From Spirogloea muscicola (Eukaryota), in assembly GCA_009602725.1 (NCBI GenBank), contig WELB01000009.1, forward strand, positions 1,052,729 through 1,116,728: DNA of 64,000 nt, given 5' to 3'. The translations under genes and the position numbers were made by a program. The notes under the pieces are model-generated. The model was given only the letters and a program-made list of their open reading frames with translations. It did no database searches and was not told where the DNA came from. The first letter of the stretch is position 1. Each line of letters begins with the position of its first letter. Shown one piece after another: positions 52,497 through 64,000 of the stretch.

Positions 52497-52554
52497 ANNN
52501 NNNNNNNNNNNNNNNNNNNNNNNNNNNNNNNNNNNNNNNNNNNNNNNNNNNNNN

Positions 52555-53750
<1,196 letters not shown>

Positions 53751-53751
53751 N

Positions 53752-54300
53752 GGTGCCAAGGAACTCAAGTACGCGGATCACCCCGAAGGCGACGAGTTTG
53801 TCCCACTCGCCGTCGACGTGCACGGAGCCTTTGGGACCAAGTGGCTAGACCTTCTTCACCGCCTTGCTCGTCGTGCGGTGGCCCGTCGCCAGGGGCAGAA
53901 CGGCGAGCAGCCTGGCTTCCACGTCGCCGGGTCCCTCGCCCAGGTGTTCAGGATGCGCCTCGCCATTTCCCTCCAGCGGTCTCTTGCGTTTGCCGTCCAC
54001 CTACGTGCCGGCCGCGCCCTGGCGGCTGCCTCCGGGTTTCGTCAGGGCGACGTCTTCCCGCCCTCTAGCTACTCGGACCTGCACTTGCTGACTCGAGGTT
54101 ACTGAGAGCCTCCTTGTCGTCTTAGCACTTAGTCTTCTGCTTTTTGTGCCATTCGGCTCCTTTTGACATTGTCCATTCCTTTTGGGCTGGCTCCTCCCAG
54201 CCACCAGTCAATTCGGCCGCGCTTTTCTCATGAGGCCGGGGGCAGGGCCCCGAGAACCTCGATGGTTACTTAAGGAGGAGGGGCGAGCGGTCGGTTGCGG
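53752..54300 (+). mobile_element. 3' end of a CRE-like non-LTR retrotransposon (end of restriction-like endonuclease domain plus 3' UTR)
   Basis: KELKYADHPEGDEFVPLAVDVHGAFG..RMRLAISLQRSLAFAVHLRAGRALAAASGFRQGDVFP..LLTRGY* (stop at 54105) is clearly paralogous to 62840-63180. It shares the ttttgggctggct UTR motif. Confidence 0.85.
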
Positions 54301-54499
54301 GCTTGGTCTCCCCCCCAAGTCGCCTACACTTGGCATTGTTTACAATTCAACAGCTGGTTTGCTTTGACCAATTGCATACGTTTGGCTCCGACTCCTTTGC
54401 TTCGCGACACCAACGCCTCGTCCTTGGGCTTGACGTTCCTCATTCTTTACACACACAACACAAGAAGAAAGTACAGGACTGTCCAAATCAGAACCTGTA

Positions 54500-57400
54500 G
54501 CTTTCCCCCTGTCGTGCTATATCCCACTTGATTTATCTGACGCCACAAATGTTGGTATCATACGCCGAGGTTGTCTTGCCCGATTGATTGGGTGTTTCGT
54601 CACAAAAGGTGGTACCAGTGGAACCCTTCTTCCTGCATCAAGAATAAGCTCAACTGTGGCCGCTGGATGTGGCTCCTGATAGTTGATGCAGGACTGCAGA
54701 AGCTGCACGGGCGCTAGACTGGGCCAAAAGTCCTCTTTCTATCGGCGAGCGAGCTAACTCTGGCAGCATCTAAAATGACATTGGGACCCGTGATTTGCTA
54801 CAACCTACGGAAATGAATAGCGTCAGGTGCATCATCGGATGGCTCTACATTTTCCACGATGTAAGCCATAGTCTTCTTCTGCTTACTGCGAATTTGCTCA
54901 AGTATGTTAAGCATTGGGAAGAAAAGAGCTGAGTGGGCATGACCAAATCCTTCCCCTCGACCTGCCGGGCTGGACCCCTCGCAAGCAAAGCCTGCTATGA
55001 CGTTGTCCACCTGGGGACGGCGTTTGATGTACTCGACTTTCTCGGCTTCTCTAATATCGCCTGGGAGTAGTGAATCCCAAGTCTCGAACGTAGTTGGAGT
55101 CACCAGATGGCTATACCGCTCCCTAAGTATAGACACATGGTGGGCTGCAGCTTGACGTGACGCCGGATTGTTGTCAACGTAAATATACTGCGCAATCTTG
55201 TACCTGCTGCGCAGCAAACCTGCCAGTCCTGCGGCACTGCCCCCGAACAGCTCCAGAACTACTAGTCCCTGCTCTCCAGACTCAAAAGGAATTACCCCAG
55301 CGTAGAATTTCCTGTCTTCAGCTGGCCCTTAATTCCTCGGTTGACCATCGGAACAGTAAATGTCCTGGTTAACCACGCATCATTCACCCACAATGCTGCA
55401 GTAGTAGACCAATCAGGTAAGATGGCAAGATACCGCCTGAATTTCTCCTTGACAGTCAATTCCGCCAAATCTGTGTCACTCAGTCCCTCTGTGGTGAGTG
55501 GATTCAGCATCCTGGATGGCTGAAGCACTGCTCGTAAGAACTCGGGTGAAATCTCTCGCTTCAGTCCACCTGGTACATTCGCGACGGTGGTGCTGCAGTA
55601 GGGGGTGCAGCAGCAGCAGCAGTAGTAGCAACAGCAGCAGCAGCAGCAGCAGGTGGTGGAACATTGACTGGTGGAGCATCAGCCGGTGGAGCATTGGCTG
55701 GTGGGAGCATCAGTTGGTGGAGTAGCAACTGGCAGTGATGCAGCAACTGGAGGTGCAGCAACTGGTGGTGCAGCAACTGGAGGTGCAGCAACTGGAGGTG
55801 CAGCAGCGGCTCGAGGTGTCACATCTTCCATCAGCTCTTCCCTCAGCTTCGCCAACTCCTCTTCCGTCGGCTCTTCTGTGCCCTCTAGACCCTCCTCCAA
55901 ATGCTTCATTCGCTTCCAATTTCCACATCATCATCTGTGATTGGCACACCAGTATTTGCCTCAATCTGCATTCGTACAAGATTTCATCAAAGGTAACAGA
56001 ACGATATTAGTACCAGAAATTAGCCAATGACCTACACCAAGCTGATTCAGAGTAGAACCCATACTTCAAATTATGGGCACCAACAAATGAGTTCCTAACA
56101 AAATGTCATAAGTTCTGGCTTTGGTAATCATGCAGACCACTGACAAAGTAGTACGTCTGTCAGGAACATTGGAATACAACGTAATTTGCACTGGTTATTT
56201 GGTTAGTCCGACGTTACTGTCAGTACCACCAGTAGCAGTCTTGATCTTGATGTCACTGAGAAACTACATCACAAGACTGTAGACCCAATTGAGTGATCAT
56301 ACTCCGACCCAAAAGGACCGGTTGAGCTCCTGTTTCTAACAAAGCAATAGTGGGCCTGATTGCATTGACCTTCAATATGCCTGAACTATCGTCTAGCATC
56401 GTCACTGAAGAGAACTGTTTCTTCCTTTCTTCCAACGACCTGAGAGGCACAATGTCAAAAACACTTGACTGAGCCTTGTTCTCCGCATAGGTTGCTTACA
56501 GGTGCAGTCTGCAGATTCTGCATAACCTCAACAGTAGTACTGGTCAGCATACTGCTCAGTTATTTTTCAGTCCATCCTAAAGTCGTTGAAGCTTAGAACA
56601 TGTGCTGTGTACAACCTGTCCAACAGCTTCCAGCTGACAATGTGCAGTCAACACTAAGTGAAGCAGGATCAGCAGCCTTTGGCCCTGTGGACTTCGCAAC
56701 AACCCGAGGCTGAGATAGAGGAATGTCAAGCTGAGTTGCCTTCAATTTGAAACTTGCTGGATACCCAGCATTACCAGTCCTAGCAAGCTGCTGCAAAGCA
56801 TTTTCACCTCGCTTCATTGGGTTTCTGCTTGCAGTATTAGACAACTCCGGAAATGCAGCAACAATAGAGGCCAGGTAAGATTACCCATACTTATGAGAAG
56901 TCCCTGCTGCATACTGAGCCCATACAGTCCTGCAAGGTCATCCTCATCCTCTTCCACATCTGAGTGCACTACAGCCGCTGCGGCTGACTTGGCCCTGGAC
57001 TTAGCCTCACTAGCAGCCAGCTGTTGGGTTAACTGTTCAAATTGTTTCTGCAACTTCTGCATTTTGTCGTCCTCAACACGACCACTGTTAGATGAAGACT
57101 TCCCCCATCTCCAATGCATTCTTATTACCGGACTTGCACAGGCAGCTTATCAGGAAATTTCTTCCAACATTGCGTGTCTACGTGTCCTGTTCTGGTGCAG
57201 TGAGCACAAGTGGCTCCTGCAGTCTGATGTCGAGCAGCACACTTTTTAGAAATATGTCCAACCTTACCACAATTGTGGCAAGTCACAGCTGGACGAGGCT
57301 TGTAATGGTCCTGTACCTGTGTTACGTCAGAAATTGCTACATGTGCCTTTGGATTTCCTGTGTTAGATCGACTAGCTGTGGACCTGCCAGCTTTTCAACA

Positions 57401-57850
57401 TCACTGGCGGACTCAGGGACTGGTTCCCACATTGACAAAACCTCATCTCATAATCCGCGCATACATAAAACCCGCATCCCCGGTGAACTACTTCGCTAGT
57501 AGAGTAATCTCCGACTCCCTGCTGACCTGACAACCATGCATGTCCAGTTGACACAACCCTGCTAGGAAATGGGTTTTCACTTCAGATAAAGTAGCGCGGC
57601 TATGAGTACCTTGGAATATCGGTAAGTCTCCAGATGCCATGTTGAAGTTTTTTCTGAAGCGTGTTGATGTTGAGATCTCGCTTGAGCTACCTGCTTCCAC
57701 ACGTGATTCAACAACAGCAGTACCAGTTGGCTCAGCGGCAAGATCTATGTCTGTCGAAGCAATTTCACCTTCAGGCTCCAGATTGACGATGTTGCCTGAC
57801 CTAAGTCTCATGCAATAGTAGCTGAGAAATTGATCACAACTCAATCAACA
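54500..57850 (-). mobile_element. Decayed LTR-type (gag-protease) retroelement carrying a C5 DNA methyltransferase; RT and integrase not seen
   Basis: Minus-strand order: MRLRSG N-terminus (about 57810); two CCHC zinc knuckles CHNCGKVGHISKKC and CAHCTRTGHVDTQC (about 57160-57285); retropepsin-like ALLETGAQPVLLG..IKTATG..YDILLG (about 56090-56350); Pro/Ala spacer; DNMT domain. Many stops and frameshifts. Confidence 0.75.
54517..55328 (-). pseudogene. Retroelement-borne cytosine-5 DNA methyltransferase, disrupted
   Basis: Motif I VVLELFGGSAAG; motif II YIYVD; motif III LPGDI; motif IV VDNVIAGFACEGSSPAG..SALFF; motif VI YIVENV; motif VIII-like LDAARVSSLADRKRTF. In-frame TAG at 54798-54800 and a frameshift near 54720. 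Confidence 0.8.
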
Positions 57851-58123
57851 GCTGATTTATATTACCGGCAACAGTCCAACTCAGAGATAGCAGTCGCGCC
57901 TGTGTGCATGTTTGAGATTATGTATCAGAGAAGTAGGACATGGGCAGGCCAGCATTACCCAAACTCTGACAACTCCGACTGAGTATCTCAGCTGACATTT
58001 TTGCAATTATCTACTACTTGCCTTCTGAGTTGTGCACAAGAAGTTGTTCAAAGTCAAGGCCACAACATGGACATGCAAAATGTCCTCAAGCAAATTGTGT
58101 CAAAATGGTACCCGCCATGCAGG

Positions 58124-58504
58124 CAAATAAGTTTTCTGTGCGAGTCCCATCTCGAACAAAGCCTCTGCCTGCACCGACTTTCTAGTAAGAATAGACATCG
58201 TACCTGCATGAAGGCCTGGAATAAAGCATATTATAGATGGGGTATGCGGGGTACGCCAATATAAAGCTCTAGTAGGGATGGTATGATGATACAGGGCTGC
58301 AAGAGCGCAGATTTAGTTGAAGTCGTACCCCACTTATGCATAGGTAGGGCTCATATAGTGGGTGAACCTGCTATGTTTTGGGCCAAATAAGTTTTCTGTG
58401 TGAGTCCCATCTCGAACAAAGCCTCTGCCTGCACCCAATTTCCAGTAAGAATAGACATCGTACCTGCATGAAGGCCTGGAATAAAACATATTATAGATGG
58501 GGTA
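58124..58504. repeat. Direct repeat pair of about 120 bp
   Basis: caaataagttttctgtg(c/t)gagtcccatctcgaacaaagcctctgcctgcacc...catattatagatggggta at about 58124-58244 and 58384-58504, with few mismatches. Confidence 0.9.
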
Positions 58505-59173
58505 CGTTGAGTACGCTTTTCCTCCTTATTCTATGTACTTCTCAAATATTACCAAATGGAGCACGGAGTACGGCCATGAAGGCCCATAGAGGGATGGATA
58601 CCCTACCACCATCATTCAGTTATTGACATTCTTATGAGCGTAATCTGTACTCCGTACTCCATAGATAGGATATCTAGCGATATTGAGCATGCCAGTGCGG
58701 AATCCTACGTGCGGATGGAGTCAGGATGCAAAAAAAGAGCGGGGCGTGGTCCTTTTTTATCCTTTTAGTTCGGTCCACCATCCCTACTAGAGCTTTATAT
58801 TTGCTTACCCTATCCTATAAGCTATATATGGAGAAAAGAGGATATACAACTCATTTAGATTTATCATTGCCATATTAGGTTGTACCTCACCGTAACCAAG
58901 GAATAATACTTTTCTTAAAGGATTGATTGCTACTTGCAGCCATGCTAGCATGCTGCAACCATGCTCGATCTCGTCCTCTTTAAAGCGTAGTCTGAGTGGC
59001 TACAAGAAGAGGGCTATTCTCATACCTACTATAGTTTTCAATCAGTGCGCTTATTGTGCACATTATTGTGCTGATCTTAAGAGAGAGCATATGAGTCAAA
59101 GGGCGAGGGATCGCAAGACAGAGGTGGGCTTCTCAGTTATCGTAGACGACAGCATCAAGAAATAGTACTGCTC

Positions 59174-59725
59174 TTAAGTGTTATTCTTTATATAGTTGAA
59201 TACACGTGTAAGCTCATAATACCCGCCTGTAGTAAGTATATCTAAATTCCATCTCTCTCTTGGTGATATATCTATTGTTTCTGCGCATTGTGGTTGTGCA
59301 TGAGGATCAATCACGTACTGCTTGTCTATATAATGTGTGCGAAGAAGTTTGCCAAACGCACTAACACCGTATAGTCTATCTAGAGTGCATTCGTCCCGCA
59401 AGTCCCTCAGCCTCCTCCTGATCTGTCTATCGGCTTCTTGCCTTGCAGATAGGGATTGTAGTTTGCTTGGCTCCTCTATCTCCAGTATGAAGACGGGTAT
59501 GTTGTCCAAAAGTACCATATACTCCAACACAAAGTTTTCAGAGTCTCTCGACTGAGGCACTGGAAGAGACCGAGGTACAACTGCAAAGTCGCTGTCCCAA
59601 GGGAACACATAAGACAGCAGCATATTGTACGGCCCAGAGAAGTTATTCTCTCCCGGGTATGAGGGGACGGCATAGAACCGATCGACGACCTCTTGAGGCC
59701 ACATCACGCTGATTGCTGCGCACAT
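59174..59725 (-). CDS. Intronless hypothetical protein resembling a fungal PD-(D/E)XK/REase-like family
   Basis: Uninterrupted 183-codon ORF (probable ATG at about 59704, MWPQEV): ENNFSGPYNMLLSYVFP..FAVVP..ENFV..PVFILEIE..SARQEADRQIRRRL..LYGVSAFG..PRERWNLDILT..G. The family assignment is from memory, not a search. Confidence 0.6.
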   Translation of the reverse strand: MCAAISVMWPQEVVDRFYAVPSYPGENNFSGPYNMLLSYVFPWDSDFAVVPRSLPVPQSRDSENFVLEYMVLLDNIPVFILEIEEPSKLQSLSARQEADRQIRRRLRDLRDECTLDRLYGVSAFGKLLRTHYIDKQYVIDPHAQPQCAETIDISPRERWNLDILTTGGYYELTRVFNYIKNNT

Positions 59726-60221
59726 AATGCAGGGTAATTCAAGAACAACAACACCTCAGTCAGTTGAATTGACCAGAAATAAGAAGGAAATCGAAGAGAT
59801 TGATGTCTGAAAGGAAGCAACAGAAGTGAATGCCAGTGATAGAGGATTAGAAGCCGATGAGCAAGCAAGCAAGCAAAGAACGAACCAGAGACGCCAAGCA
59901 GGTTGAAGAAGCCAAGCAGCGCGCGCGGCAGGAAGAAGACTAGCAGCGCACCCAGCAGGAATGGAAGCAGACAGTAGAGATGGAAAGAGCAAGCAAAGCG
60001 TCCAATAATGGAGCTCTGTACCCCGAGGCCATGCCCGTGGAGGGGGCGACAGCTCATGGTAGGATAAAAGCGGCGCACCGGTGTGGCGTCTATAGCGTCT
60101 ATGGCGTCTACGAAACAGGCTGGTATTGGATGCCACCCCCCCGCTGTCTCCTTCGACTTTGCCGAGCACAAGGAATTTCCTTAAGGTGGACAAAGCCCCT
60201 CCTAAACCCCAGGCCGCCGCN

Positions 60222-63200
60222 CCGCCGTCAGCGTCGCTGCCGGCGGCGCCCGCCATGTGGTCTTCGGCGCGCCGGCCCCCTCCCGGCCTGCCCCTCGCGC
60301 CCGCCGCCGCCGCAGCTCCCGCCATCGCCATGCCGCCCGCCGCCGCCGCCCCGCTCCCCGTCGCCCCAATGGCGGAGTCTCGGAGCCCGGAGTATCTCCA
60401 GGCGAAGCACCTTCGTGAGGCGGCCCTCCTTGCCGCGCCTCTGCCTGCCTCTGCGTCGCCGCTCCTTGCCGTCCTCGCCGCCTCCTGCCTCCACTTCGTC
60501 CTCAAGCAACCTCCGCCGCCACCGCCGCCGAGGAGGAGCTCCTGGCGCAACACGACGCCGCAGTGGCGGCAGCCGCCGCCAGTCGCCACGCCCGGCGTGG
60601 GGAGTCGTCGCCCGACAGAGCAGCGGCCATCCGGCGTGCTCTTCGCTTTGGACACGCCGGCGAGCTCTCGCGGGCTGTGCAAGCACTTGAGGACTCTTCG
60701 CTGGCTCCACCGACCTCGACAACCAGACGTGGGTGCGCCTTCCCCCCCCTGGCTGCCTTCCTTCGAGCCGCCAGAGGCGGTGACCCTCGACGCCGCAGCC
60801 CTCCGCCGGGCAGCCGCAGAGCAGCCGCAGAGCAGCAGCAGGCGGCCCCTCTGGCATGCTCACGGAGCACCTCCGTCCGTGAGCTGTTCCTCCGAGGGCG
60901 AGGCCTCCGACTTCCAGGCGCTGCTCCAAGTCTGTCAGCCCGTGGCCCAGGACAAGGTCCCTGCTGCTACCCGCTCGGTGCTCTGCTCCAGCAACCTCCT
61001 CGCCATCGCCAAGGCCAATGGCGGAGTCCGCCCAATCGCCATCGGCGAGGTTCTGTACCGGCTGGTGGCCTGGCACAGCACGCTGTGCCAGCAACATCTT
61101 GGGCAGGCGCAGACCCACCTTGCCCCACATCAATACGGCGCTGGTCTGCGAAGCGGCGGGGAGGCTGTCGTCCACGGCGTCCGCGCGGCCCAGGATCTCC
61201 ACCCTGACTGGATGGTCCTGGCTCTCGATGTCCCAAAGACGCCTTCAATAGCGTAGAGCGCAGCGCCATCGCCGACGAGCTGCGAGCGGCCTTCCCTTCC
61301 CTCCTGCCCTTCTTCCGCCTTGTCTACGGCCAGCTCAGCGACCTTCTCTGGTGGACGGGGAGTGGCGAGGTAGGGACGCTGCAGTCCAGGGACGGGCACA
61401 CGCCAGGGGGATCCTCTGGCAGGGGGGTTCTTCTTTGTGCTGGCTCACAATCGCGAGCGGCGCACCCCAGCGTCCTCCTCCCGTCCTGCGCCGACGACAC
61501 CACGCTGGTCGGCAGCCCAGGGGATGTGTCAGCAGCCACCGCCACCTTCCAGCAGCAGCTGGCCGCCCTCGGCATGTCCATCCGGCCCGAGAAGTGCACT
61601 GCGTGGTTTCCGCGTGGCCTCCCTGCCCCCTTGCCCCTGCCGCCTGGGTGCCAGACTCTTCCAAGCGGCCTCACCATCCTGGGGGTCCCATTCGGCACGC
61701 CGTCTTTCGTCGACGGGCAACTGCGCGACCGGCTCCAGGAGCACCTCCAGCCGGTGGCCCGCCTCCCTGAGCTGCAGGATATGCAGCTGGCGCTTGCTAT
61801 GCTCACCAGGTGCATTGTGCAGCGTCCCCACTACCTGGCGCGAACGACCCCTCCCTGCCCCACGGTGCTGGAGGCCTACACCACATTCGATGCAGGCGTC
61901 ATGGAGAGCGTGGCGGCCCTCATCCGTCACACTGGCTTCCTCGACTCGCCAGCTGCACCGCTCCAGGCCACTCTGCCCCCTGGCCAGGGCGGCCTCGGCT
62001 GCCGCTCGCTCGCGGCGCGTCTGCAGGCCAGCGTTCCTTGGCAGTTGGGCACAGGTCGCCACGTCGGTGGCGCAGCGCTTCCTCCATGATGGGTGGCCCC
62101 TGTTGCAGCAGGTTGTGGTGGAGGTGGCGACCGTTACCTTTTTAGGTGGCGCTCCGCTCCGCTCAGCTCAGCTCAAGACGGGCTACTTGCGGAGCACCCT
62201 GCCCTTGCAGAGAGCGTGGTCCCGTTTGCCCACCTTGCCCACACCACCGACTCGCAGGCGCAGGCACGTTACATGGCGGCAGTCGACAAGGCGTCCTTCA
62301 CGGCCACGCTGCAGCTCCTCCCTGCAACCGACGTGCGCGGCCATGCTCGGCTGCTGTCGGCCGCCTCCCCCGGCGCGGCAGCCTGGCTCTCCGCGCGCCC
62401 CCTGTACGATGCCCTTAGGATGCCTGATGAGCTGTTCCGAACGGCCACCCATCGCCTGCTGGGCCTCCCCCCGCCCTGCCTGCTGGGCGTGCTACAGTGT
62501 GAATGTGGGGAGCGGTCGATGGACCCGGCGGTGCTGGCGGCGCATATCCTCCGCTGCGCCACTGGAGGTGAAAGTACAGCTGCTCACGATCTCCTGCGTG
62601 ATGCAATGTTCGGCATCTTTCAGGAGGCCGGCTACACGGTGGCGATGGAGAACTCTTCCGTCATGCCAACCCTCCGGAGGGCCGACGGACTGCACACACG
62701 CCGTGTCGACTTGGTGGCGTCCACGCCGGGCGGCGGCGCGCGCATCATCGCTGACGTGGTCACCACTGATGTGGTCGACCGTTCCAACCCGGGGCTCTCT
62801 GCCTCGCAGGCTGGCCACGCTGCGGCGAAGGCCGCTCGCAGCAAGGCGCCCAAATACGCCGACCACCCGGCTGCAGATGAGTTCGTCCCCCTGGCTGTGG
62901 ACGTGCTGGGGCTCTCGGGTCCCAGTGGCTCGACCTGCTGGCCAGGCTTGCGAGGCGTGCTGTGGCCCGCCGGCGTGGGGAGCCGGCTGACTTCAACGCC
63001 GCCGGCTCGTGGGCTCAAGTCTATCGTATGAGATTGTCAGTATCCCTGCAGCGGTCCATAGCCCACGCCCTGCATCTGCGTGCTGGCCGTGCTCTCGCTG
63101 CGGCCTCTGGCTTTCAACAGGGGGACAGTTTTCCGGCAGCTAGTCTGTCGGATCTGCGGCTCCTCACTCGTAACTACTGAGTGATCCATCATCCCCCTGT

Positions 63201-63400
63201 GCTGACATGACATCTTCAGGCCCCTCTGTAGCTGCTAAACGCTTGTCGGCCCCTCCGAACCCTTGTCAATTCTTTTTGGGCTGGCTTATTGCAGCCCTTG
63301 CCCTCATTTGGAGTGCCACTTCTTCTTCTTCTTCTTTTTTGGGCTGGCTGTTCCAGCCCCTATCCTCACTGGGCGAGCCCTTGCTTCTTTTCTTTCTCCG
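60222..63400 (+). mobile_element. CRE-clade-like non-LTR retrotransposon (RT plus restriction-like endonuclease), frameshifted
   Basis: RT motifs LLAIAKANGGVRPIAIGEVLYRL, QYGAG..GGEAVVH, LALDV..AFNSV, GTRQGDPL, CADDT, GLTILGVPFGT and GGLG. Then CECG..H..C..GGE..HD..RD, RRVDL..IIADV, K..KY..FVPLAVD, ending LLTRNY* at 63180. Several frameshifts. Confidence 0.88.
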
Positions 63401-64000
63401 CCATACACTTCACTGTTCCGTCGACCAGGCCACCCAGGCCGTTCAAGAAGAAAGGGCTCGCCAATTGAGGAGAGGGGCCGGACAAGCCAGCCCAAAAGAA
63501 TGAACAAAGTACGAGCTGGTCGTCCTTTGTGCATGATGAACGGAACCAGGTCATTGACTTGACCGCATGCAAATAAAGCACGCCCTCAAGTCTTCGAATG
63601 TCAGTCGATGACAGTGCACTGACAGAGGCAATACAACAGAAGAGTACACAGTGTGCAATATGCACATTCGATTCGCCAGGCTCAGAGCCAAATCAGGAAA
63701 CGACAATGGAAAAAATGGAATAGCTGCCTTGGACCAATCTCAGTACCAGAAAGCGAGTTGTTCCAGAGGGAAGTGACAGTGGCAATATTTACGAGTTGGT
63801 CACTTTGCGCACCCTCTTGAAAGCAGGTCAAATGTGTGGTCTATGTAGTGGGGGAGGCACAAATGCAATGACAGATCGCCCTTGAGTTGCCAAATGAGAG
63901 CCATTTGATGAGGCCCACTGACTCAACTTCTTTGTTTGTACTCCCAGCATCACATCTGTGCCATCAGAGCAAGGTCATTGTCATTGTCACGAGAGTGGAA

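What the first reader, a model, noticed from the sequence alone, without database searches (positions are those of the whole stretch)
54500..57850. Retroelement with a cytosine-5 DNA methyltransferase downstream of gag and protease
Seen: on the minus strand, two CCHC knuckles and a retropepsin-like segment are followed, collinearly and with no introns, by ordered C5-MTase motifs (LELFGG; GDI; IAGFACEG.S.AG; SALF; ENV; DAARVS...RKR). The catalytic PC reads AC and the protease DTG reads ETG, and there are stops and frameshifts, so this copy is dead. Established: DNMT capture by retrotransposons has been reported in dinoflagellates and charophyte algae. Inference: this is a relic of such a family, possibly one that methylates its own cDNA. 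Its RT/RNaseH/integrase (or recombinase) part seems to have been lost where the CRE-like 3' end abuts it at about 54.3-54.5 kb.
Basis: partly seen in the sequence, partly recalled or inferred. Interest (0 to 1): 0.85.

Follow-up and report, generated by a model that had tools for sequence, protein, structure and literature searches.

The report
Dead algal Gypsy retrotransposon carrying DNMT3
This is a broken, cut-short copy of an algal jumping gene that carries its own DNMT3-type DNA methylase right after its protease, a kind of element already known from algae, but some intact relatives have a likely leaky stop signal that would make far more methylase than reverse transcriptase.

Summary
Observation confirmed. 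On the minus strand, two CCHC knuckles, an aspartic protease and a C5 methyltransferase (Pfam PF00145, above cut-off) lie in order, broken by stops and frameshifts. The methylase stops before motifs IX-X where a CRE-like LINE 3' end meets it tail to tail. The host is a zygnematophyte alga close to Spirogloea, and three other Spirogloea copies group with it. Intact relatives settle the type: a Ty3/Gypsy polyprotein, gag-protease-DNMT-RT-RNaseH-integrase, with a DNMT3-type enzyme. This is the published streptophyte Gypsy-DNMT3 kind, not a chance neighbour. Corrections: PC is not fixed in this family (EC in 116 of 179), so AC does not prove death; and the RT half may lie in an adjacent assembly gap rather than be lost. 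New from relatives: Gypsy elements hold this enzyme at two positions, and all 6 metagenome loci spanning the DNMT-RT junction have a stop at the matching site, 4 with the TMV-type UAG-CAR-YYA readthrough signal. That would make the methylase at Gag level. Whether the window's family did this cannot be seen, as its junction is gone.

The parts
57491..57811 (-). Likely gag N-terminal remnant (from the MRLRSG Met)
   Evidence: Open frame, same frame as the knuckles; no profile match for this part, so inferred from position
57167..57280 (-). Two CCHC zinc knuckles (nucleocapsid)
   Evidence: Pfam zf-CCHC 29.7 bits, cut-off 20.8; the second knuckle and its tail match the gag profile of relatives at E 5e-8
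56680..56832 (-). Conserved gag-protease spacer motif (YPASF)
   Evidence: 45% identity to Spirogloea protein P0002, E 7e-7; similar LPxSF motifs in other relatives
56069..56450 (-). Aspartic protease in two frames, catalytic D replaced by E, stop at 56197
   Evidence: Profile of PR-DNMT-type proteases: E 6.8e-14 and 6.6e-17; profile of RH-DNMT-type proteases only 0.094 and 8.8e-8; stops listed
55330..56068 (-). Long acidic and Ala/Pro-rich linker between protease and DNMT
   Evidence: Translation; short repeats; no family found; relatives have linkers of mostly 47-301 aa
54726..55328 (-). DNMT3-like C5 methyltransferase, motifs I-VIII, in-frame stop at 54800
   Evidence: PF00145 above cut-off; family profile positions 6-190 of 327; 47% identity to Spirogloea copy P0184
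54514..54750 (-). DNMT C-terminal part after a frameshift, ending before motifs IX-X
   Evidence: Family profile positions 184-263, E 2.6e-10
53752..54470 (+). 3' end of a CRE-like non-LTR retrotransposon (endonuclease end, stop at about 54105, 3' UTR), tail to tail with the DNMT
   Evidence: 66% identity over 350 nt to the second CRE-like element; CRE assignment rests on recalled motifs, Pfam RVT_1 only E 0.18 on the longer copy; the right edge is estimated
52498..53751 (.). Assembly gap: 57 N then a 1195-nt A run; could hide the rest of both elements
58110..58516 (-). Candidate LTR end: 133-nt direct repeat (93%) ending just before CA-TGGCG, a possible primer-binding site about 300 nt upstream of gag
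   Evidence: not shown to be an LTR, no second LTR in the window, no match to upstream regions of relatives

Best explanation
This is a dead, 3'-truncated copy of a Ty3/Gypsy LTR retrotransposon whose coding region carries a DNMT3-type cytosine methyltransferase between the protease and, as in intact relatives, the reverse transcriptase; in active copies the enzyme would likely be cut free by the protease inside the particle and methylate the newly made cDNA, likely at CG, before it integrates. Shown: the domains and their order, the breaks, the DNMT3 affinity, and the full Gypsy layout in relatives. Inferred: that this copy once had RT, RNase H and integrase; that the CRE-like insertion cut it. 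Untested: proteolytic release, packaging, substrate and purpose (likely making the new copy look like host-methylated DNA).
For: phmmer over 1.84 billion representatives gave 504 hits; of the 150 listed, 21 show PR-DNMT or DNMT-RT order, 63 show RH-DNMT or DNMT-INT order and 66 are too short to tell. Single-ORF CCHC-PR-DNMT-RT-RH-INT proteins: P0099, P0152, P0153, P0157, P0158, P0160, P0161, P0164; the RT of P0099 is closest to Ty3. Named hosts of PR-DNMT or DNMT-RT proteins are Spirogloea, Closterium and Mesostigma. The window groups with three Spirogloea copies (FastTree 0.994; SH-aLRT 99.6). A family profile hits DNMT3A/3B best (E 1e-22, against HhaI 4e-12 and DRM2 5e-9), and the AlphaFold model of an intact relative (pLDDT 95) matches DNMT3A/3B structures first (TM about 0.7). 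PMC5890265 reports Gypsy-Dnmt3 in Klebsormidium under purifying selection and shows CG methylation by the related DIRS-Dnmt3 in yeast. The gag-protease part is CpG-poor (o/e 0.38-0.44 against 0.59-0.94 in the other stretches measured).
Against: No RT, RNase H, integrase or second LTR is in the window, so the Gypsy label for this copy rests on relatives at 30-50% identity. The Klebsormidium Gypsy DNMT gave no methylation in yeast, which the authors call inconclusive. Most relatives have EC, not the usual PC, at the catalytic motif, so activity or specificity may differ. The DNMT stretch itself is not strongly CpG-poor (0.69), and host silencing explains CpG loss equally well. Deep branches of the DNMT tree are unstable: a group of RT-PHD-PCIF1-DNMT-RNaseH proteins falls next to the window's clade in FastTree.
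Confidence: 0.8

Rival explanations
1. Same element type, but of the readthrough variant: gag-protease-DNMT is one ORF ending in a leaky UAG, with RT-RNaseH-integrase made only by readthrough. The methylase would be made and packaged at Gag level, many copies per particle, and might also act on host DNA.
For: Of 80 metagenome loci I examined the 10 best; 6 span the DNMT-RT junction and all 6 have a stop at the matching site: TAG CAG TTA (L007, L008), TAG CAA TCA (L010, L016), TAG TAG CCA (L012), TAA CAA CCC (L013). In L007 it is the only internal stop of a 2400-codon frame, and only 1 of 101 TAG triplets there (1 of 75 in L010) is followed by CARYYA. Loci differ by up to about 34% in DNA. UAG-CAR-YYA is the TMV readthrough signal, 6-32% in plants (PMC2754532 passages). 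The window's clade falls in one larger group with these loci (FastTree 0.92, SH-aLRT 88), apart from most single-ORF forms.
Against: The window ends before the junction, so nothing is seen directly. The larger group is only moderately supported and also holds unrelated PCIF1-DNMT proteins, and in FastTree the single-ORF P0180. The metagenome query was built from these proteins, so the 6 of 6 is not a sample of the whole family. L013 is decayed, with a frameshift between its DNMT and the stop. Closterium, also a zygnematophyte, has single-ORF copies (P0190, P0076).
Confidence: 0.45
2. A non-autonomous element that never had RT: a gag-protease-DNMT unit moved by a helper Gypsy, carrying the methylase as cargo.
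For: None of the four Spirogloea gene models found includes RT; P0025, P0026 and P0004 end 170-480 aa after the DNMT with no RT and their DNA was not seen.
Against: P0162 and P0163 also end after the DNMT, but at the site where L007 and L010 carry the leaky stop and go on into RT. The Spirogloea models are short or decayed, and the window's DNMT is cut inside the domain.
Confidence: 0.08
3. Chance juxtaposition of a host DNMT3 pseudogene with gag and protease fragments.
For: The copy is fragmentary and lies among other repeats; the PR-DNMT linker has no known match.
Against: 31 proteins show PR directly followed by this DNMT; P0002 matches the window in spacer, protease and DNMT in order; no introns in a genome whose host genes are intron-rich.
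Confidence: 0.02

Closest known systems
KnitGypsy-Dnmt3 of Klebsormidium nitens (de Mendoza et al. 2018, PMC5890265; parts 1-5 of 7 of the text and passages of the peer-review file read; Fig. 4c not visible, main supplement too large to read)
   Same: Streptophyte alga; intronless DNMT3-related domain inside a Gypsy coding region.
   Different: Different algal class (Zygnematophyceae). The paper puts the DNMT in the same ORF as RT and RNase H, whereas one group of relatives here has a stop between them. It describes DIRS-like repeats, which I could not test. Its domain order could not be read, and no Klebsormidium sequence was identified among the 30 clusters I looked up, so same-family status is unproven.
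SymbioDIRS-Dnmt3 (same paper)
   Same: DNMT3-type domain in a retrotransposon polyprotein; shown to methylate CG de novo in yeast.
   Different: DIRS with tyrosine recombinase in dinoflagellates; relatives here have a DDE integrase and a retropepsin.
EpiLTRs and DAM-LTRs (bioRxiv 10.64898/2026.05.21.726589, passages read)
   Same: LTR retrotransposons carrying DNA methyltransferases.
   Different: Their DNMT is DNMT4-related, at the 3' end of pol in Cymbomonas, paired with an adenine methylase; the authors call it distinct from streptophyte Gypsy-DNMT3.
TMV type I readthrough (PMC2754532, passages) and stop-separated gag-pol such as Candida Tca2 (PMC2194720, search listing only)
   Same: In-frame stop with a CAR-YYA context (TMV); a stop separating structural and enzymatic ORFs (Tca2).
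   Different: In relatives here the stop lies after protease and DNMT, not after gag. Seen only in relatives, not in the window.

Membership tests
C5 cytosine methyltransferase (PF00145) | Profile match and ordered motifs I, IV (catalytic Cys), VI (ENV), VIII (RxR) | tested here: met
C5 cytosine methyltransferase (PF00145) | Motifs IX and X, intact frame | tested here: not met
   Window covers profile 6-263 of 327, with one stop and one frameshift inside; relatives are complete
DNMT3 clade | Closer to DNMT3A/B than to DNMT1, DNMT2, DRM2 or bacterial enzymes | tested here: met
   Family profile and fold of an intact relative. The window sequence alone hits only HhaI weakly. No tree with reference DNMT families was built
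Ty3/Gypsy LTR retrotransposon | gag with CCHC knuckle followed by retropepsin | tested here: met
Ty3/Gypsy LTR retrotransposon | RT-RNaseH-integrase order with Ty3-type RT | tested here: inconclusive
   Absent from the window, present in relatives; an assembly gap lies next to the break
Ty3/Gypsy LTR retrotransposon | Paired LTRs, primer-binding site, target-site duplication | tested here: inconclusive
   Only a candidate repeat end and PBS-like TGG upstream
KnitGypsy-Dnmt3 | DNMT3-related domain in a Gypsy coding region of a streptophyte alga | tested here: met
KnitGypsy-Dnmt3 | DNMT in the same ORF as RT and RNase H | tested here: inconclusive
   True for some relatives, not for L007, L008, L010, L012; junction missing in the window
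KnitGypsy-Dnmt3 | Sequence clusters with the K. nitens copies; DIRS-like repeat layout | not testable with these tools
   No K. nitens sequence in hand; figure and main supplement unreadable
KnitGypsy-Dnmt3 | Purifying selection on the DNMT across genomic copies | not testable with these tools
   No genome held
DIRS-Dnmt3 | Tyrosine recombinase instead of DDE integrase | tested here: not met
   Full-length relatives carry rve and H2C2 integrase, no recombinase family reported

The most novel reading that the evidence does not exclude
The window is a fossil of a streptophyte-wide Gypsy lineage that puts a DNMT3 in the Gag-protease ORF and places RT-RNaseH-integrase behind a TMV-type leaky UAG, so that each particle is loaded with methylase at near-Gag level. 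Together with a second Gypsy lineage carrying the same enzyme between RNase H and integrase, this would show the methylase being moved within pol and its dose set by translational recoding.
Probability: 0.4. Interest if true: 0.7.

Novelty: new member of a known kind. Interest (0 to 1): 0.5.

Why it matters
The role of retrotransposon-borne DNMTs is still open: the only charophyte enzyme tested gave no activity in yeast. This locus extends Gypsy-DNMT3 to Zygnematophyceae, the sister group of land plants (recalled), and the relatives found supply intact enzymes to test. If the leaky stop is real, DNMT dose is under selection separately from RT, which gives a direct test: remove or tighten the stop and measure cDNA methylation and transposition. 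The copy in the window is itself a dead fragment.

Tried and rejected
No genome was held, so genomic copies could not be searched, and sequencing runs could not be examined, so expression and the gap content stay open. A search of longer proteins with the DNMT alone gave only 2 hits. Viral contigs gave 6 weak loci (25-40% identity over short stretches), not examined further. 70 of 80 metagenome loci were weak hits (E 2e-10 or worse) and were not examined. IQ-TREE with ultrafast bootstrap timed out; only FastTree and fast SH-aLRT supports are reported. No LTR or PBS similarity to relatives' upstream DNA. The PR-DNMT linker had no Pfam or Atlas match. The stop at 54800 has CAA after it but not CARYYA and lies inside the catalytic domain, so it was rejected as a readthrough site; a TAG-CAATCA at 58932 lies outside the element's coding region. 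P0062 looked like DNMT plus Copia RT, but its cluster mate P0188 has Copia pieces nested between DNMT and Gypsy RT, so it is likely a fused gene model. Paper searches: KnitGypsy found only the 2018 paper; Spirogloea+DNMT3+retrotransposon 0; Gypsy+methyltransferase+PHD finger+green algae+LTR retrotransposon 0; readthrough+CARYYA+retrotransposon 0; DNMT3+retrotransposon+Gypsy+streptophyte algae 1, not relevant on the passages read; two searches listed no paper on readthrough after a DNMT by title or abstract start. The library lacks most subscription journals.

Full report
Observation. Pfam confirms the C5 methyltransferase (27.8 bits, cut-off 22) and the zinc knuckle. Pfam protease families match only below cut-off, but a profile from relatives' proteases matches two frames at E 6.8e-14 and 6.6e-17, with at most 0.2 bits in 20 codon shuffles. 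The six homology-supported blocks (knuckles, spacer motif, two protease halves, two DNMT halves) change frame five times, and stops lie at 56197, 56068, 54800 and 54519. The DNMT covers positions 6-263 of a 327-position family profile and lacks motifs IX-X.

Surroundings. The window holds intron-rich eukaryotic genes (RPB2, SPT6, FANCL, EMC4, RPL10). An SPT6 exon is 93% identical to a single hit whose identifier has the same form as the Spirogloea muscicola proteins named, so the host is a zygnematophyte at or near Spirogloea; the species name for that hit is inferred from the identifier. On the plus strand, 53752-54105 is 66% identical over 350 nt to the end of a near-complete non-LTR element at about 60.1-63.3 kb, whose motifs I recall as CRE-type; Pfam support is weak. 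Its 3' UTR meets the DNMT tail to tail near 54450-54515. Beyond it lie a 1195-nt A run and 57 N, then RPL10. Gypsy RT, RNase H and integrase profiles find nothing in the window. They need over 3 kb in relatives, more than the gap's stated size, so they were either deleted or lie in an under-sized gap.

Relatives. phmmer found 504 representatives; of the 150 listed, 63 have the DNMT between RNase H and integrase, 21 have it after the protease or before RT, and 66 are too short to class. The window has the second order, and its protease fits that group's profile far better than the first group's. Eight proteins show CCHC-PR-DNMT-RT-RH-INT in one ORF, with a Ty3-type RT (P0099). Of 30 clusters looked up, those with an organism name are Spirogloea (3), Closterium (6) and Mesostigma (1); the rest are unnamed environmental records. 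The window groups with three Spirogloea copies (0.994; SH-aLRT 99.6). In an RT-RNase H tree, all 14 RTs of the DNMT-before-RT type form one clade (SH-aLRT 97.4) apart from 56 of the other type (midpoint root, no DNMT-free Gypsy included, so one capture with relocation and two captures cannot be told apart).

Enzyme. A profile of 20 family members hits DNMT3A/3B first (E 1e-22), then HhaI (4e-12) and DRM-type enzymes (2e-10 to 6e-9). An AlphaFold model of the intact L007 domain (pLDDT 95.1) matches DNMT3A/3B structures first. The residue before the catalytic Cys is E in 116 and P in 51 of 179 relatives, so the window's AC is not by itself disabling.

Readthrough in relatives. A metagenome scan gave 80 loci, of which I examined the 10 best. 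L007 and L010 hold gag-PR-DNMT, then RT-RH-INT-PHD in the same frame behind one stop. All 6 loci that span this junction have a stop at the matching site; 4 read TAG followed by CAR-YYA, and the other two differ by one or two bases and one of them is decayed. Only 1 of 101 TAG triplets in L007 and 1 of 75 in L010 has this context. The loci fall into about four lineages, 66-76% identical. CAR YYA after UAG is the TMV readthrough signal, measured at 6-10% in stable and 32% in transient plant assays (PMC2754532, passages). P0162 and P0163 end at the same site. The window's clade sits in a larger group with these loci (FastTree 0.922, SH-aLRT 88.2), but that group also takes in unrelated proteins, and most single-ORF forms, including Closterium's, lie outside it. 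The scan was seeded with these proteins, so it does not sample the family evenly.

Mechanism. Shown: domain order, breaks, DNMT3 affinity, Gypsy layout in relatives. From established Gypsy biology (recalled): the protease cuts the polyprotein inside the particle where cDNA is made. Inferred: the DNMT is released there and methylates the cDNA before integration, most likely at CG as shown for DIRS-Dnmt3 in yeast; the Klebsormidium Gypsy enzyme was inactive in that assay, which the authors call inconclusive (PMC5890265). I put the identity at about 0.9 and the cDNA-methylation role at about 0.55. CpG depletion in the gag-protease part (0.38-0.44 against 0.59-0.94 elsewhere; DNMT part 0.69) fits methylation but does not say by whom.

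Comparison with print. PMC5890265 (parts 1-5 of 7 read, peer-review passages; figure and main supplement not readable, which may hold the domain order and sequences) describes Gypsy-Dnmt3 in Klebsormidium with the DNMT in the RT ORF. PMC12344493 (passages) repeats this for streptophytes, and a 2026 preprint (passages) treats streptophyte Gypsy-DNMT3 as known and adds DNMT4-related EpiLTRs. My searches found nothing on Spirogloea copies, on two DNMT positions in Gypsy, or on readthrough after the DNMT. Unchecked notes of this scan report gag-protease-DNMT3 elements in peat moss; I did not test whether L007-type loci come from moss.

Verdict. A real but dead new member of a known kind. The added value lies in the relatives: intact enzymes, two insertion positions and a likely programmed stop. 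Interest 0.5.

Noticed in passing
window 59177-59755 (-): Intronless 193-aa ORF with no Pfam match whose 30 nearest Atlas clusters are unnamed eukaryotic proteins, the top three mostly fungal (score 0.97-0.98), with a weak lean to restriction-enzyme-like folds. A fungal-type gene between two retroelements in an algal genome: possible gene transfer or transposon cargo.
   Followed up: partly
window about 60100-63300 (+): Near-complete CRE-like non-LTR retrotransposon with frameshifts and a 3' hairpin (arms 63337-63389 and 63445-63497), only 66% identical to the fragment at 53.8 kb.
   Followed up: partly
window 58249-58810: 34-nt inverted repeats (94%) around 494 nt, MITE-like, overlapping a 133-nt direct repeat.
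   Followed up: no
L007:5083, L008:2081, L010:4661, L012:1789, L013:3444, L016:1782: Stop between DNMT and RT in all six loci spanning the junction, four with a perfect UAG-CAR-YYA readthrough context.
   Followed up: yes
proteins P0197, P0199 (also P0103, P0109, P0111): Unnamed environmental polyproteins with RT, PHD, PCIF1-type adenine methyltransferase domain, C5 DNMT and RNase H in one chain; P0199 (4799 aa) also has a weak OTU protease match. Possibly a non-LTR element with two methylases.
   Followed up: partly
protein P0121: RT, C5 DNMT and a weak Dam match in one 1457-aa protein.
   Followed up: no
proteins such as P0009, P0011, P0131: A large Gypsy group with the same DNMT between RNase H and integrase and a C-terminal PHD finger; hosts unnamed.
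   Followed up: partly
window 52556-53750: 1195-nt A run next to N: likely an assembly artefact, not a poly(A) tail.
   Followed up: no
window 41100-43658 (-): 853-aa Gly/Ser/Tyr-rich repetitive open frame with no Pfam match, resembling stress or LEA-type proteins by composition only.
   Followed up: no
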